64,000 bases of DNA, taken from the NCBI RefSeq assembly GCF_009914755.1, contig NC_060933.1. One strand, given 5' to 3'. This stretch comes from the human T2T-CHM13v2.0 reference genome, Homo sapiens. Positions 50,001 through 56,000 of this stretch are shown here, in pieces. Made by a program: the position numbers and the translations under genes. Position 1 is the first letter of the stretch. Every line of letters begins with the position of its first letter. Below the pieces are notes generated by a model, which was not told the origin of the DNA, searched no databases, and was given only the letters and a program-made list of their open reading frames with translations.

Positions 50001-53000
50001 CCATAGTATGTGCTGCATATGGATTGTGTTTGTTCTGTTTCTAATAGCTAGAAACCAGTGCCTGAAAGAAACTCCAATTAAAATACCAGTAAATTCAACA
50101 GGAACAGACAAGTTAATGACAGGTGTCATTAGCCCTGAGAGGCGGTAAGTGTTTGGTTTTTTTAGACTCTAATCTTTAGTATATGTAACCAGATTTCCTT
50201 TTTCATGTATTAATAGACCTGATTAAGGTAAATCATCACATAGATTCTGTTGGAGAGTAGGAATATCTGTTTATGTGTGGATGACCTGTGGCCATTCCTG
50301 GACCTGTAGCCACTGCCTTCCTCATGGGGTAGAATCATGAAACTGATCAGCAGTAGGACGGCACCTTAAGTACAACAGGCTGGGAAGACAGTGGTCCTCA
50401 CCCCAGCCAACTAGTTACCTCTCTGAGGCCCATCTTACCCTTCTCTTCTGCCAGTAAAATACAGATATCCTCTAACAGATTGTAGTCCTCCCAAATCGTA
50501 AAGATACTGTTGTTTCAAAGAAAATCCTCTGTATGAAAAGTTCTGCAGCATAGGTAACTCTTCAAGTTGCTATTCTTTTATAGCAATTTCTTAAAGGCAT
50601 TGTCTATTTTCAAGACAATTGGGAGAATTAGAATGTGGACAGGGTATTAGATGATATTATGGAATTATTATTAATTTATTGATGAAGAAACTGAGGAGAT
50701 CAGGAATAAAATGATTTATCAAAGCTATATAGTACAAAGCTGGAGCCAGAACCCAGGTCTTCTCATTCCTAATCTTATGGTTTTTCTCCCACAGTCTGGA
50801 AGTGCTGGAGAACTACCTAGAAAGCCAACTAACACCACAGTAGTTTCTATTGAAAAATGCATTCAGGTTCCAAAATATTTACATAACTGACCATTTTTAG
50901 AACATTATCCGTTAGTATTTGGTAACTGCTTAGCTTCTCAATAATGTGTATATATGTGGTTGAACTAGTTTCCTTAATTTTATTTAACATTTTTCAGTGC
51001 AATGGTACTATGGTTTTTTTAAATCTCAGTGTCAGTGCTTGAAATACTTAACTATCTCCAACCAGAAAAATTTCAGAACAAAAGGATAAAATATGCCTAA
51101 TAAACAGCCATATGTAACGTAAACTTCTCAGCACACTTTATGGTGTTGTCTTTATGGAAGACAACATCCTTATTCATTGGAGATGTATACTGAAGTGTTT
51201 CAGAGTAAAGTGTCATGATATGTTCAGATGAGTTACTTTCAGATGGCTTAGCAAATAAGTAAATTTAATGTATTATCTACATACATTAAATTTATGTGTA
51301 TATATAGATATATACATTGATGTATATATATCAGTATATATCTATATACATATGTACATTAATATATTATCTATATCCAAATAGAAAGCAAATGTGGCAA
51401 AATATGAACAATTGTTGAATCTAGGAGGATATACCGGTGTTCATTGTACTCTTCTTTGAACTTTTCTATATATATGAAAAAAGGATATATATATCCTTTT
51501 TTAAAAAGGAAGGGGATAAATAGTTTTGCTGAGTGGCAGTTGCCTGGTAGAAGTGTGACAGCTCCTGTCCAGGGGGAGATGGCTTTGGTGCTTCCTGAGG
51601 AAGAGAGAGGTGATCTGGCCCTGGCATACCTGAGTGAGGCATCCTAATGTGTATGAAGGGACAAAAGTTCACCCTTGTGGACCCCACAGGCCGGAGGCCC
51701 AGCTCTACTTGTGCCTTGTTTTATGTTTTGTTTCAGGTGCCGCTCAGTGGAATTGGATCTCAACCAAGCACATATGGAGGAGACTCCAAAAAGAAAGGGA
51801 GCCAAAGTGTTTGGGAGCCTTGAAAGGGGGTTGGATAAGGTTATCACTGTGCTCACCAGGAGCAAAAGGAAGGGTTCTGCCAGAGACGGGCCCAGAAGAC
51901 TAAAGGTAAGCAGGCTGGAATTCTTTCATATGGAGCAGAAGCTGACTGCTAATGGACTGCCTTTTTTTTTTAAGGTGCTGAATGAATTGATTAGTGTTTT
52001 TTATTTGAGTATTTATTCACTTAGTTAATATATGTTTTTTGAGCAACTAAAATCTGCATGTTACTGTGCAGTCAGTAAATAGATACAGTCACTCCCTTCA
52101 AGGAGCAAACAGCTATCATTCAAATATTCAAGAACAGGTGGAGGGATTAGTCACAGGGGCAACATGGAGGTGAGGAAGCAGGGGGCACAGATGGAGAGCT
52201 GAGAGCTGCCTTAAGGAGGGGGACTTGAGCTCAGTTGTGTCCCTGATTCATGGATACTTTGTAGGCCCTCATGAAATATTTGAATGCATGGGAAGATAAT
52301 TGGAACTTTGAGTGTGGTGTGTGTCAGGAAAATAGTGAGTGACAAGCGGGGAAGGTAGGCCGGAAGGGCCTCAAGGCCTGGCTAAGAAGGTGTGGATCTT
52401 ATTTAATAGACCCAGTATGCTTTAAAAGGGTTAATGTGTCACTGGTGTGGACAATATATTTAGTCAAGGAAGGAAAGGAAAAATAAGCTGTTAGTTGATA
52501 TAAAGTACTTTTTATTCTCTTGGATTCTCTCTGAGCATTCATTCAAACATCTGATGAATACATGTTTGTTTGGTGGAAGGGGAGTAATTAAGAGGTAAAG
52601 GGACGAATGAGACAGCCCATTCCTTGAGGAACTCTTAGGCTGGCTGTGAAAACAGGCTGGGATGTTGTTCTGAAACACTGGGCTCAGTGCTATAGTAAAA
52701 ACACATTCCAAGAGGTGTGGGCCCAAGCAGGGGAGAAGATGGTAGTGTGCCCATCATTTGGGGACTGGGTCTGTGTTTAGTTTTTGCACTGAGACTCTCG
52801 TAATGAGCAAATCTGGGCGGTTTGAGGGAAGGAAAATGCTGAGCTTTTGGGCAGAAGGGTGTTTTAGAGGAGAATGTTCTGTGATCTCATTTCTGTTCTG
52901 TCTTAAAGTGGAAGAAGATAGGAGTTATCCACTAGCAGTCATTACCTTGAACTTTTGTAGTGTGCTGAGACGTTACATATGGCTGTGTATTAGGCATATT

Positions 53001-56000
53001 TTATCCTTTTGTTCTGAAATTTCTCTGGTTGGAGATAGTTAAGTATTTCAAGCACCGACACTGAGATTTAAAAAAACCATAGTACCATTGCACTGAAAAA
53101 TGTTAAATAAAATTAAGGAAACTAGTTCAACCACATATATACACATTATTGAGAAGCTAAGCAGTTACCAAATACTAACGGATAATGTTCTAAAAATGGT
53201 CAGTTATGTAAATATTTTGGAACCTGAATGCATTTTTCAATAGAAACTACTGTGGTGTTAGTTGGCTTTCTAGGTAGTTCTCCAGTACTTCCAGAATGTA
53301 GGAGAAAAACCACAGGATTGGGAATGAGAAGACCTGGGTTCTGGCTCCAGCTTTGTGCTGTATAGCTTTGATAAATCATTTTATTCCTGATCTCCTCAGT
53401 GTCTTCATTTGTAAAATCTGGAAATAATGCCTACCCTGGCAACCTCACACGGCTGAGATGTAGAAACAAGACTCTACATATGGGATGCTACATGGCATAT
53501 TAAATGCTTTATGAGTATAAGGTGACATGTTTCCAATGTCAAGGATTACTATCAGTGTTGAGCATTTTACCACCCATGTATAGACCCATGGTCCTAATTA
53601 GCACAGTCCTAAGATTGAAAACTTTAACTTTAGATCATTAACACTTTTTAATGCTTTTAAGTTTTTGCAAAACTGAAGGACTTTCTTTGGGAAATTAACC
53701 TTATTTTTTTTCACCTACTTCAAATACTGTACTAAAAACTATACACTTACCGGAAGAGTTGCAAGGATAGTAGAAATAATACCTTAGTTTTTTAAGATAG
53801 CAAATCATATGTAGTTATGTCCTCTTTTAGGAAGCAGTCTATAAAAAATCCAAAATTTAAGTAGATAAATTAGGATTCATTCTTTATTTTACCAAAGCAG
53901 TAATATATTGTGATTTGAAGGTGTTCAGTTTATTATTAATATCATCTTAACAGAGCCAATTTAGTTTGGTGAAAAGAGTGCTGGATCAGGAACCAAGAAA
54001 GAGAGGGTCCCTTCGTTAACACTCAGTTTCACGACATTTGCTCTATGGGTGTATTGGGTGCACTATTATTTATCTGGTATTTTCATTATGTTGACTCTCC
54101 TTTAACAAATGGATTTATAGAGATATAACTGACATATAATAAACTTGCACATATTTTATTTTATTTTATTTGTTGTTAATTTTTTGAGGCAGAGTCTTGC
54201 TCTGCTGCCCAGGCTGTGGTGCAATGGCATGATCATAGCTCACTGCAGCCTCAACCTTCTGGGCTCAAGTCATCCTCCTGCCTCAGCTTCCTGAGTAGCT
54301 GGGATGCGTGCTACCACACTTGGCTAATTCTTAATTTTTTTTGCAGAGACAGGGTCTCACTATGTTACCCAGGCTGGTCTTGAACTCCTGAGCCCAAGTA
54401 ATCCTCCTGCCTTGGCTTCCCAAAGTGCTGGGATTACAGTCATGAGCCACTACACCCGGCCAACTGTGCATATTTTAAAGTACAATTAATATGCTTTGGC
54501 ATTATATATAACATCTGTGAAACCATTGCCACAATCAAGATAATTTTTTAAAACTCAAATTTATTTAAAAGGAAACCTTTATATCATTAGGGTTTTTTTG
54601 TTGTTGTTGTTAATTATGTTTTCGAAATCAGTTGGGAACAAATACATATTTAAAAATATTTATCCATGTGCCACCCAGAATTACCTTGTCTATCTTGTAT
54701 CACACTATGAGAAGCACTACCTTAAGAAATTTGTATCTCTTCTTTGGGCCATAGGTTCTTATTTTGAAAAGTAAGATAGTTGGATACTTTTCTTCCTAGG
54801 CATTTTGTTATTTATACAATGAACTCAAACCTGAAAGATATAGAAACTACGGTTTTGTTTGACAGTGAAGGTACTTACCAGGAAGGGAGGGATTTTTGTG
54901 TGTCCAGGACCCACTAAAACAGTGCCTACCACATAGTAAACATTCAAAAGTAGTTGTTGAATGAATGAAGGATAAATATCAATTAGGAATGAAATTATCT
55001 CTGAGAATTAGGCTCTCAGTCAATGAGAAAAAATAATATGACATCACTTTTTTAAAGGAATACCTGTTACATTTATTTCCTCATAGAACTGTCATAAAAT
55101 CAGCTCCTGGAACTCTATAATATTCTTTAAATAATCCAGAAAGAGTTAAGGAAACATATCCAACTAGGTACAAAGCAAACTTTGTATGGTGTTTGTTTAT
55201 CTTTCCGTGGTATACATTTCAGGACTGTTAATGTCTCTTAAAATAGTGTGGGAAGGGGAAAATAGGCAAAGCTCAAACAGTTAGATGGGTGCTCTTTAAT
55301 ATTTATTTCTTTAAAAGGATTGGTAGGAGAGGAAGATGAAAGTATGAAAAGGAAGCTATGGGTGTGTTTACTAATAACCATAACTTCTCCAAGCTCTCCC
55401 AGTGGGCCATTAACTCACTAAGAGTTGACTGTAAATTCCTTTGATATTTTTTAGGAAATAGTTCCATTTGAAACAGTACTATATTGAGGAGTTTTGGAAC
55501 TCTTGATCTGGTGTGATGGTCTTTGTGTTGATGTAAAAATTTACTTCTCATCTCTTCTTTTTCTTTTCTTAGCTTCACTATAATGTGACTACAACTAGAT
55601 TAGTGAATCCAGATCAACTGTTGAATGAAATAATGTCTATTCTTCCAAAGAAGCATGTTGACTTTGTACAAAAGGGGTAAGAAGCACATTTACAAGCTGT
55701 TGCATTTATTAGTATCTTTTGGACTTTGAGAAAATAGGAGTTGGTTGGGCGCGGTGGCTCACGCCTGTAATCCCAGCACTTTGGGAGGCTGAGGTGGGCA
55801 GATCACTTGAGGCCAAGAGTTCAAGTTCAGCCTGGCCAACATGGAGAAGCCCCGTCTCTACTGAAAATACAAACAATTAGCTGGGCATGGTGGCGCATGC
55901 CTGTAGTTCCAGCTACGTGGGAGGCTGAGGCATGAGAATCACTTGAACCTGGGTGGAGGCTGCAATGAGCTGAGATCACACCACTGCACTCCAGCATAGG

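What the first reader, a model, noticed from the sequence alone, without database searches (positions are those of the whole stretch)
50682..53408. A ~450-bp near-perfect non-Alu inverted repeat brackets MELK exon 16: candidate RNA-structure splicing/NMD switch
Seen: 50682-51137 is the reverse complement of 52959-53408, with 12 substitutions and one 6-nt indel. Five of the 12 would be G-U wobbles in the sense RNA and four would be A-C pairs. The 1.82-kb loop contains exactly one exon (exon 16, 169 nt, not a multiple of 3). Joining exon 15 to exon 17 reads CGC TTC ACT ATA ATG TGA, with the stop at 55586-55588, 88 nt upstream of the last junction. Established: intronic reverse-complementary sequences promote exon skipping, back-splicing and ADAR editing; stops more than 50-55 nt upstream of the last junction trigger NMD; the MELK C-terminus including KA1 is autoinhibitory. 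Inference: this stem pairs much better than typical inverted Alus, so it may tune MELK output by unproductive skipping, an exon-16 circRNA or a KA1-less protein.
Basis: partly seen in the sequence, partly recalled or inferred. Interest (0 to 1): 0.85.

Follow-up and report, generated by a model that had tools for sequence, protein, structure and literature searches.

The report
Inverted duplicate flanking MELK exon 16
Two nearly identical 450-base stretches lie in opposite orientation in the introns on either side of one MELK exon; this is a real and rare local duplication that should fold the RNA into a long double strand, but nothing yet shows that it regulates the gene.

Summary
50682-51137 is the reverse complement of 52959-53408, with 12 substitutions and one 6-nt indel. 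The genome holds only these two copies, so this is a locus-specific inverted micro-duplication, not Alu or another interspersed family. The predicted RNA duplex has 443 pairs and -767 kcal/mol. It survives in the global fold of exon 15 to exon 17 and is the longest and best of 207 inverted pairs in the window. The 1,821-nt loop holds only exon 16 (169 nt). Skipping it gives a TGA 88 nt before the last junction. The functional reading has no support here. 0 of 53 RefSeq MELK transcripts skip exon 16. The two published circMELKs map elsewhere. Exon 16 has strong splice sites. The 5 G-U: 4 A-C split is what neutral transitions give. Mismatches are mosaic, 7.3% in the outer part and 0.9% in the inner, with a 229-bp perfect run (P about 0.002). 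This points to arm-to-arm gene conversion or an error-prone junction. Verdict: a real, rare, young intronic duplication and a new member of a known kind. It is probably an ADAR substrate with at most low-level circle or skip by-products.

The parts
50682..51137 (+). Left arm of the inverted duplication (456 nt), in MELK intron 15. It starts 537 nt after the exon 15 donor and ends 599 nt before the exon 16 acceptor. GC 0.34.
52959..53408 (+). Right arm (450 nt), the reverse complement of the left arm, in intron 16. It starts 1,053 nt after the exon 16 donor. GC 0.35.
51138..52958 (+). Spacer or loop of 1,821 nt that holds exon 16 and no other annotated exon.
51737..51905 (+). MELK exon 16 of 18 (169 nt, codons about 502-558, not a multiple of 3). 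It has a pyrimidine-rich acceptor and a near-consensus donor, and is present in 53 of 53 RefSeq transcripts.
50805..51033 (+). 229-nt stretch of the left arm that is perfectly complementary to 53057-53285. It is the longest uninterrupted run (P about 0.002 for 12 random mismatches).
50682..50804 (+). Outer 123 nt of the left arm (partner 53286-53408), carrying 9 of the 12 substitutions (7.3% against 0.9% in the inner 327 nt).
51120..51125 (+). Six bases present in the left arm only, the single indel, 12 nt from the inner end.
50048..50144 (+). Exon 15, the upstream partner of the hypothetical 15-17 junction.
55573..55676 (+). Exon 17. After skipping of exon 16 it is read out of frame.
55586..55588 (+). 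TGA reached in the shifted frame, 88 nt upstream of the last exon-exon junction.
57900..58073 (+). Coding part of exon 18. Residues 15-58 of its translation match Pfam KA1 (PF02149, E 1.7e-15). It would be lost from any protein made from the skipped mRNA.
51260..51502 (.). AT-rich palindromic and (TA)n-like block (51260-51376) plus a perfect 26-nt palindrome (51477-51502) in the loop. They lie 123-365 nt from the inner end of the left arm and may be a fork-stalling site relevant to the origin of the duplication (inference).

Best explanation
This is a young, locus-specific inverted micro-duplication. One roughly 450-bp piece of a MELK intron was copied in reverse orientation into the neighbouring intron, most likely by a replication template switch or fold-back event (inferred). 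The two copies now bracket constitutive exon 16. The arms have either exchanged sequence since then (arm-to-arm gene conversion) or carry an error-prone-synthesis scar at the outer junction. In the pre-mRNA the arms are predicted to zip into a 443-bp, 98%-paired duplex that closes a 1.8-kb loop around exon 16. The expected consequences are inferred, not shown. The first is promiscuous A-to-I editing of both arms by nuclear ADARs, with the four A:C mismatches as preferred sites. The second, in a minority of transcripts, is back-splicing of exon 16 into a 169-nt circle and/or a 15-17 skipped mRNA that NMD removes. I read it as a tolerated, essentially neutral structural by-product. It is tolerated because it is wholly intronic and exon 16 has strong splice sites. 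I do not read it as an evolved switch.
For: Shown:
- Two copies only in the T2T genome.
- Sharp arm ends with no significant homology beyond them. The outer flank scores 18 against shuffles of 14.2 +/- 2.3 (max 25); the inner flank scores 11 against 11.8 +/- 2.0.
- Overall divergence is K2P 0.027.
- Mismatches are mosaic: 9 in the outer 123 nt and 3 in the inner 327 nt (binomial P = 8e-4). The perfect run is 229 bp (P = 0.002).
- The duplex is -767 kcal/mol with 443 pairs. Each arm alone folds at only -86 and -103 kcal/mol.
- All 443 pairs persist in the MFE of the 5.6-kb exon 15 to exon 17 pre-mRNA.
- No competing partner exists for either arm.
- 53 of 53 RefSeq transcripts keep exons 15, 16 and 17.
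- Of 9 transitions, 5 give G-U and 4 give A-C, the neutral 1:1 expectation.
- There is no Rfam family on the arms.

Background:
- Inverted repeats flanking an exon promote circles, and over-stable hairpins can inhibit them (PMC4201285, abstract and passages).
- Looped-out exons show lower inclusion (PMC8052449, passages).
- Duplexes longer than 300 bp and more than 96% paired are rare and mostly unedited because untranscribed (PMC11838218, section 10).
Against: - No RNA data could be examined, so editing, circle formation and skipping are all predictions.
- RefSeq seldom annotates NMD targets and never annotates circRNAs, so 0 of 53 is weak negative evidence.
- The near-perfect inner 327 nt could in principle reflect selection for a perfect duplex rather than gene conversion.
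- Exons looped out by stable structures are depleted genome-wide (PMC8052449). A constitutive, frame-shifting exon inside the most stable kind of loop is therefore unusual and may have a real cost or use.
- The polarity and age of the duplication could not be determined without other primate genomes.
Confidence: 0.6

Rival explanations
1. The stem is a functional RNA switch that tunes MELK output by diverting transcripts into exon-16 skipping plus NMD, an exon-16 circRNA, or a KA1-less 506-residue kinase.
For: The geometry is right. A single out-of-frame exon sits in the loop, the stop lies 88 nt before the last junction, and KA1 is encoded downstream in exon 18. The duplex is far stronger than the local Alu pairs. 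More stable loop-outs go with lower exon inclusion (PMC8052449). [quoted passage not shown]
Against: 0 of 53 RefSeq transcripts skip exon 16. The published circMELKs are from exons 2-4, or use primers that do not map to exons 9-18. A 2026 MELK review has 0 occurrences of isoform, splice variant or alternative splicing. The splice sites are strong. The substitution pattern shows no sign of selection for pairing. Very stable hairpins can inhibit circularisation.
Confidence: 0.1
2. The main significance is at the DNA level. The arms are substrates for non-allelic homologous recombination. They exchange sequence by gene conversion and can flip the 1.8-kb spacer, which would give rare null alleles with exon 16 inverted.
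For: There is a 229-bp perfect run and a mosaic of 0.9% against 7.3% divergence. Inverted repeats mediate recurrent human inversions whose breakpoints lie in the high-identity parts of the repeats (PMC3961182, passages).
Against: The inversions validated in that paper span 5.1-226 kb, and the repeats it describes in the passages I saw are kilobase-scale. 450-bp arms are small. No inversion in MELK turned up: the search for 'MELK' with 'polymorphic inversion' gave 2 papers, and the one I opened had an author-name hit. The mosaic can also be a mutational scar from the duplication event itself.
Confidence: 0.15
3. The duplex matters as double-stranded RNA in its own right. It could be a ligand for MDA5 or PKR when splicing fails, or a precursor of small RNAs.
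For: 443 pairs with 97.8% of nucleotides paired meets the 'long, highly paired' criterion (>300 bp, >96%) that PMC11838218 uses for putative MDA5 substrates.
Against: The arms lie in two different introns. The duplex therefore exists only in unspliced nuclear RNA and is destroyed by splicing. The same preprint argues that such intronic duplexes do not reach the cytoplasm. No miRNA family matches the arms.
Confidence: 0.05
4. It is an assembly artefact or a transposon with long terminal inverted repeats.
For: None beyond the shape.
Against: The arms differ at 12 sites and one indel, so they are not a collapsed or mirrored read. The interior holds a coding exon of an 18-exon gene in the correct orientation. 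The genome holds no further copies.
Confidence: 0.02

Closest known systems
Mouse Sry locus: a single exon flanked by long near-perfect inverted repeats that drive its circularisation
   Same: The arms are non-transposon inverted repeats born of a local inverted duplication. They are near-perfect and bracket one exon with consensus splice sites. PMC4201285 (passages) cites deletion work that at least 400 complementary nt were needed there, and the MELK arms are 450 nt.
   Different: The Sry repeats are >15 kb and the circle is a documented major product. Here the arms are 0.45 kb, the exon is an internal constitutive coding exon, and no circle has been reported.
Inverted Alu pairs flanking circRNA exons (e.g. 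ZKSCAN1; Liang and Wilusz 2014)
   Same: Complementary sequences in the two flanking introns bring the splice sites together.
   Different: The arms are not Alu, since the genome holds only two copies. They have no competing partners and are longer and far better paired (97% against 79-91% in this window). They are AT-rich (GC 0.34), so the energy per pair is similar to that of GC-rich Alus.
Exon loop-outs by pairs of conserved complementary regions (PCCRs; Kalmykova et al. 2021, PMC8052449)
   Same: A long-range intronic duplex encloses an exon. That class shows lower exon inclusion, encloses circRNAs and overlaps A-to-I sites.
   Different: PCCRs are short and evolutionarily conserved. This duplex is 443 bp and probably lineage-specific.
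'Long, highly paired' predicted dsRNAs of the human dsRNAome (dsRNAscan, PMC11838218)
   Same: It meets both thresholds (>300 bp, >96% paired). The class is rare: 2,018 of 5,134,754 predictions.
   Different: Most members form between inverted LINEs, and 88% are intergenic. This one is genic, non-repetitive and spans an exon. MELK is not named in the main text (0 occurrences). Table S5 could not be read.
Inverted-repeat-mediated polymorphic inversions (Aguado et al. 2014, PMC3961182)
   Same: A pair of inverted repeats with a high-identity core, and signs compatible with gene conversion.
   Different: Those inversions are 5.1-226 kb with larger repeats. No inversion is known here.

Membership tests
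Intronic reverse-complementary pair flanking a circularisable or skippable exon | Complementary sequences in inverted orientation, one in each flanking intron | tested here: met
   456 and 450 nt arms in introns 15 and 16, 12 substitutions plus 1 indel
Intronic reverse-complementary pair flanking a circularisable or skippable exon | Pairing across the exon is favoured over pairing within one intron or with other partners | tested here: met
   All 443 pairs are kept in the global MFE of 50048-55676. There is no other partner in the window or the genome.
Intronic reverse-complementary pair flanking a circularisable or skippable exon | Observed back-splice or skipping junction | not testable with these tools
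   No reads were available. Annotation shows 0 of 53 transcripts skipping exon 16. The published circMELKs map elsewhere.
Inverted Alu pair | Both arms are Alu elements (high-copy family of about 300 nt) | tested here: not met
   Only two genomic copies. The arms are not in the masked-repeat table and show no similarity to the Alu-like repeats of the window.
Long, highly paired dsRNA (dsRNAscan definition) | >300 bp and >96% of nucleotides paired | tested here: met
   443 pairs; 886 of 906 nt = 97.8%. Definition from PMC11838218 section 10.
Long, highly paired dsRNA (dsRNAscan definition) | A-to-I editing as proof of formation in vivo | not testable with these tools
   A paper search for MELK + A-to-I + intronic gave 9 papers. 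The two I opened were author-name hits.
Unproductive splicing coupled to NMD | The alternative isoform carries a stop more than 50-55 nt upstream of the last exon junction | tested here: met
   TGA at 55586-55588, 88 nt upstream. The 50-55 nt rule itself is recalled textbook knowledge.
Unproductive splicing coupled to NMD | The alternative isoform exists | tested here: not met
   0 of 53 RefSeq transcripts, including 1 non-coding NR model. This is annotation only, so it is weak.
Segmental duplication (conventional definition, recalled: at least 1 kb and at least 90% identity) | Length of at least 1 kb | tested here: not met
   Arms of 456 and 450 nt. Identity of 97% would qualify.
DNA transposon with terminal inverted repeats | Multiple dispersed copies, with an interior that belongs to the element | tested here: not met
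   No copies other than the two arms. The interior holds MELK exon 16.
Inverted-repeat substrate for NAHR inversion | Inverted repeats with a long tract of perfect identity | tested here: met
   229-bp perfect run
Inverted-repeat substrate for NAHR inversion | Both orientations of the spacer seen among haplotypes | not testable with these tools
   Only one human assembly was available. The literature search found nothing.

The most novel reading that the evidence does not exclude
An ape-lineage inverted duplication, kept almost perfect over its inner 330 bp by arm-to-arm conversion, makes MELK one of the roughly 240 human genes with a duplex longer than 300 bp and more than 96% paired. That figure is my arithmetic from the preprint's 2,018 predictions, of which 12% are genic. 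The duplex would act as a valve gated by helicases and ADAR. When DHX9 or ADAR1 activity is low, or transcription is fast, the stem persists. Exon 16 is then looped out, and MELK pre-mRNA is diverted to a 169-nt circle plus an NMD substrate. Under spliceosome inhibition it would become a strong endogenous dsRNA ligand in MELK-high proliferating cells.
Probability: 0.08. Interest if true: 0.7.

Novelty: new member of a known kind. Interest (0 to 1): 0.35.

Why it matters
If the duplex forms in cells, it offers a clean natural test of two questions. How does the splicing machinery, ADAR and RNA helicases handle a very long, almost perfect, non-repetitive intronic duplex around a constitutive frame-shifting exon? 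Does extreme stem stability help or hinder circle formation? Unlike Alu pairs, it has a unique sequence. Reads, editing sites and CRISPR edits can therefore be assigned without ambiguity, and there are no competing partners. MELK is a proliferation-associated kinase studied as a cancer target, so an unproductive-splicing route or an immunogenic dsRNA from its pre-mRNA would be of practical interest. At the DNA level the pair could create rare null alleles by inversion. If, as I think more likely, it has little effect, it still shows that strong splice sites can override an extreme loop-out.

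Tried and rejected
- **Interspersed repeat or Alu:** rejected. Three genome searches found only the two arms.
- **Transposon with long terminal repeats:** rejected. There are no other copies, and the interior holds a coding exon.
- **Known RNA family:** the Rfam E-value scan of 50000-54000 gave 4 matches, all sub-threshold and none on the arms. 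Two mir-297 hits and one mir-466 hit fall on the TA-rich low-complexity block at 51288-51363. One Fluoride hit falls at 50113-50199. All were rejected as chance.
- **Extension of the arms:** Smith-Waterman of 300-nt flanks was not above shuffles. nhmmer extended the alignment to 50638-50681 against 53409-53440, but with low posterior values and a 14-nt gap. I treat this as unproven.
- **Repeat identity of the outer end:** from recall, the outer roughly 120 nt of each arm and the right flank look like an old MIR-type SINE. blastn and nhmmer found no other copy in the window. The one 59-nt hit at 3342-3399 was not above shuffles on re-alignment.
- **Polarity** (which arm is the original) therefore stays unresolved.
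- **Processed-pseudogene record of old mRNA isoforms:** none exists. Exon 18 and exon 16 each match only the gene itself.
- **Literature:**
  - circMELK gave 34 papers. I opened two primary papers and the source of hsa_circ_0009127, which gives no exon information.
  - MELK + inverted repeat + dsRNA gave 15 papers. By title only one concerns MELK splicing, and it deals with exons 1-4 and 6-12.
  - MELK + exon 16 + skipping gave 9 papers, seen as a listing only. None is about MELK by title.
  - MELK + A-to-I + intronic gave 9 papers. The two I opened were author-name hits.
  - MELK + polymorphic inversion gave 2 papers. The one I opened was an author-name hit.
- **What 'not in print' rests on:** these five searches and main texts only. 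Supplementary tables were closed and may already list this duplex or an exon-16 circle. These include dsRNAscan Table S5, the loop-out list of PMC8052449 and circRNA tables.
- **Dating:** the mutation rates used (0.5-1.2e-9 per site per year) are recalled, not from a call.

Full report
**1. The observation**

- An ungapped scan of 50000-54200 found one inverted pair: 50675-51120 and 52970-53415, 446 nt, 97% complementary, 1849 nt apart.
It has 12 substitutions in 450 aligned columns. One 6-nt insertion sits in the left arm, 12 nt from its inner end.
- As RNA pairs in the sense transcript, the 12 mismatches are 5 G-U, 4 A-C and 3 purine-purine.
- The spacer is 1,821 nt. Its only annotated exon is 51737-51905, 169 nt, exon 16 of 18 in NM_014791.4, covering codons about 502-558.
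- Joining exon 15 to exon 17 shifts the frame. A TGA is reached at 55586-55588, 88 nt before the last exon junction.
- Pfam KA1 (PF02149, E 1.7e-15) lies in exon 18, downstream of that stop.

**2. Chance and repeat family**

- Of 207 inverted pairs of at least 150 nt in the 64-kb window, this is the longest and the best paired. The other 24 listed are 229-320 nt and 79-91% complementary, and they look like Alu x Alu pairs. 'Alu' is my recognition of the sequences; the masked-repeat table carries no family names.
- I searched the whole T2T genome with the whole arm, with the outer part plus right flank, and with the inner part. Each search returned 2 of 2 scored candidates, the two arms themselves. 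The tool warns that very common words are skipped, so old, diverged repeat relatives could be missed.
- blastn (word 7) and nhmmer of the arms against the window hit only each other.
- The arms are not in RefSeq's table of masked repeats of at least 100 nt.

The feature is therefore a locus-specific inverted micro-duplication. It is not an interspersed element pair.

**3. Boundaries, mosaic and age**

- Homology stops sharply. 300-nt flanks outside and inside the arms align no better than shuffles.
- nhmmer carried the alignment about 44 and 32 nt further out, to 50638-50681 and 53409-53440. This extension has a 14-nt gap and low posterior values, so I do not rely on it.
- The 12 substitutions are not spread evenly. 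Nine lie in the outer 123 nt (7.3%) and three in the inner 327 nt (0.9%), binomial P = 8e-4.
- The longest perfect run is 229 bp (50805-51033 with 53057-53285), P = 0.002 against 20,000 random placements.
- Overall K2P distance is 0.027. With recalled primate rates of 0.5-1.2e-9 per site per year, that is 11-27 Myr if the arms evolved independently.

Two histories fit the mosaic:
- (a) An older duplication, at the 7% level, whose inner part was later homogenised by arm-to-arm gene conversion.
- (b) A younger duplication, at the 0.9% level, whose outer junction was copied inaccurately.

Only other primate genomes can decide, and none was available. Which arm is the original is also unresolved. 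By recall, the outer ends resemble an old MIR-type SINE that seems to continue past the right arm's end. An AT-rich palindromic block (51260-51376) and a perfect 26-nt palindrome (51477-51502) lie in the loop just inside the left arm. Such sequences stall forks, and this is compatible with a template-switch origin (inference).

**4. RNA structure**

- The two arms are predicted to form a duplex of 443 pairs at -767 kcal/mol. Each arm alone folds at -86 and -103 kcal/mol. 886 of 906 nt are paired, 97.8%.
- In the minimum-energy fold of the whole 5,629-nt stretch from exon 15 to exon 17, all 443 arm-to-arm pairs are kept.
- The four antisense Alu-like elements nearby (three in intron 14, one in intron 16) pair with the one sense element in intron 17 at -383 to -486 kcal/mol and 252-274 pairs.
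Per pair the energies are similar, because the arms are AT-rich (GC 0.34-0.35).
- None of the Alu pairs brackets exon 16 alone. They bracket exon 17 or exons 15-17. Neither arm has another partner.

**5. Evidence on function**

What I could examine is negative but weak.
- All 53 RefSeq MELK transcripts (52 mRNAs, 1 non-coding) contain exons 15, 16 and 17. Exon 13 is present in only 31 of 53, so the annotation does record alternative cassette use in this gene.
- Exon 16 has a long pyrimidine tract and a donor matching the consensus at 8 of 9 positions by my reading.
- The circMELK studied in glioma comes from exons 2-4 and is 299 nt long (PMC8190146, passages).
- The circMELK of the osteoarthritis paper (hsa_circ_0009127) is amplified with primers that have 0 matches in the window at up to 2 mismatches. 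It therefore does not lie in exons 9-18.
- A preprint on Ku and Alu-driven splicing shows MELK changes only between exons 1-4 and 6-12.
- A 2026 MELK review has no occurrence of isoform, splice variant or alternative splicing.
- MELK has no processed pseudogene that could record old isoforms.
- Any transition in a Watson-Crick pair gives either G-U or A-C with equal opportunity. The observed 5:4 among 9 transitions is the neutral expectation and no sign of selection for pairing.

**6. Mechanism**

*Shown:* the DNA structure, its uniqueness in the genome, the predicted duplex and the frame consequences.

*Established elsewhere:*
- Inverted repeats of 30-40 nt flanking an exon suffice for circularisation.
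- Greater hairpin stability can sometimes inhibit it.
- ADAR may oppose it. These three points come from PMC4201285 (abstract and passages).
- Exons looped out by complementary regions have lower inclusion, the more so for stable structures. Such structures enclose circRNAs (PMC8052449, passages).

*Inferred:*
- The right arm is transcribed only 1.8 kb after the left arm. The left arm will therefore often still be present, and the stem should form in a good share of nascent transcripts.
- Nuclear ADARs should edit it heavily. The four A:C sites (A at 50777, 51034, 51067 and 53300) are the best single-site predictions.
- A minority of transcripts may give a 169-nt circle or the 15-17 mRNA, which NMD would remove.

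I judge a tolerated, nearly neutral by-product as most likely (0.6). My estimates for the rivals are 0.1 for an evolved switch, 0.15 for a DNA-level role as a conversion and inversion substrate (which is not exclusive), 0.05 for significance as immunogenic or small-RNA-producing dsRNA, and 0.02 for an artefact or transposon.

**7. Comparison with what is known**

- The closest case is mouse Sry. There a single exon is circularised thanks to flanking inverted repeats of more than 15 kb, and at least 400 complementary nt were reported necessary (PMC4201285 citing Dubin 1995).
- It works like inverted-Alu-flanked circRNA exons and like PCCR loop-outs, but it is not an Alu pair. That membership feature was tested and not met.
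- It meets the thresholds of the 'long, highly paired' dsRNA class: 2,018 of 5,134,754 predictions, 88% intergenic and mostly inverted LINEs (PMC11838218, section 10). That makes it one of perhaps 240 genic cases by my arithmetic.
- That catalogue probably already contains it.

**8. Verdict**

This is a real, rare, well-described structure and a new member of a known kind. The functional claim is plausible in kind but unsupported for this locus. Interest is 0.35. It is a clean natural substrate for testing how cells handle an extreme exon loop-out, but nothing so far shows that it matters to MELK.

Noticed in passing
window 23210-23473 and 23848-24111: A 264-nt, 84% complementary inverted pair (Alu-like by my recognition) lies only 374 nt apart and tightly brackets MELK exon 11 (23743-23829, 87 nt, in frame). 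This is a more conventional candidate for structure-driven skipping or circularisation than exon 16.
   Followed up: no
window 54144-54464 and 55740-56045: An antisense Alu-like element in intron 16 and a sense one in intron 17 bracket exon 17 (duplex -383 kcal/mol, 252 pairs). Skipping exons 16+17 together removes 273 nt and stays in frame, unlike skipping either alone.
   Followed up: partly
window 51260-51376 and 51477-51502: An AT-rich, (TA)n-like palindromic block and a perfect 26-nt palindrome lie in the loop close to the left arm. The block gives sub-threshold Rfam hits to mir-297 and mir-466 (35 bits against gathering scores of 90 and 85), which I take as low-complexity chance matches.
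   Followed up: partly
window 37991-38113: Exon 13 (123 nt, in frame) is the only cassette exon used alternatively in this part of the gene in RefSeq (present in 31 of 53 transcripts). Its acceptor and donor look weaker than those of exon 16.
   Followed up: no
window 50638-50681 and 53409-53440: There is weak, gapped similarity just outside both arms (nhmmer, low posterior). By recall the outer arm ends resemble an old MIR-type SINE that continues past the right arm. This is untested for lack of a repeat library.
   Followed up: partly
window 50730-50804 (partner 53286-53360): Eight of the 12 arm differences cluster within 75 nt. Four of them have T in the left arm where the right arm's complement has C. 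Such a one-sided cluster might be a mutational scar rather than steady decay.
   Followed up: no
whole genome (G000): MELK exon 16 and exon 18 with its 3' UTR each match only the gene itself, so this assembly seems to hold no MELK processed pseudogene.
   Followed up: yes
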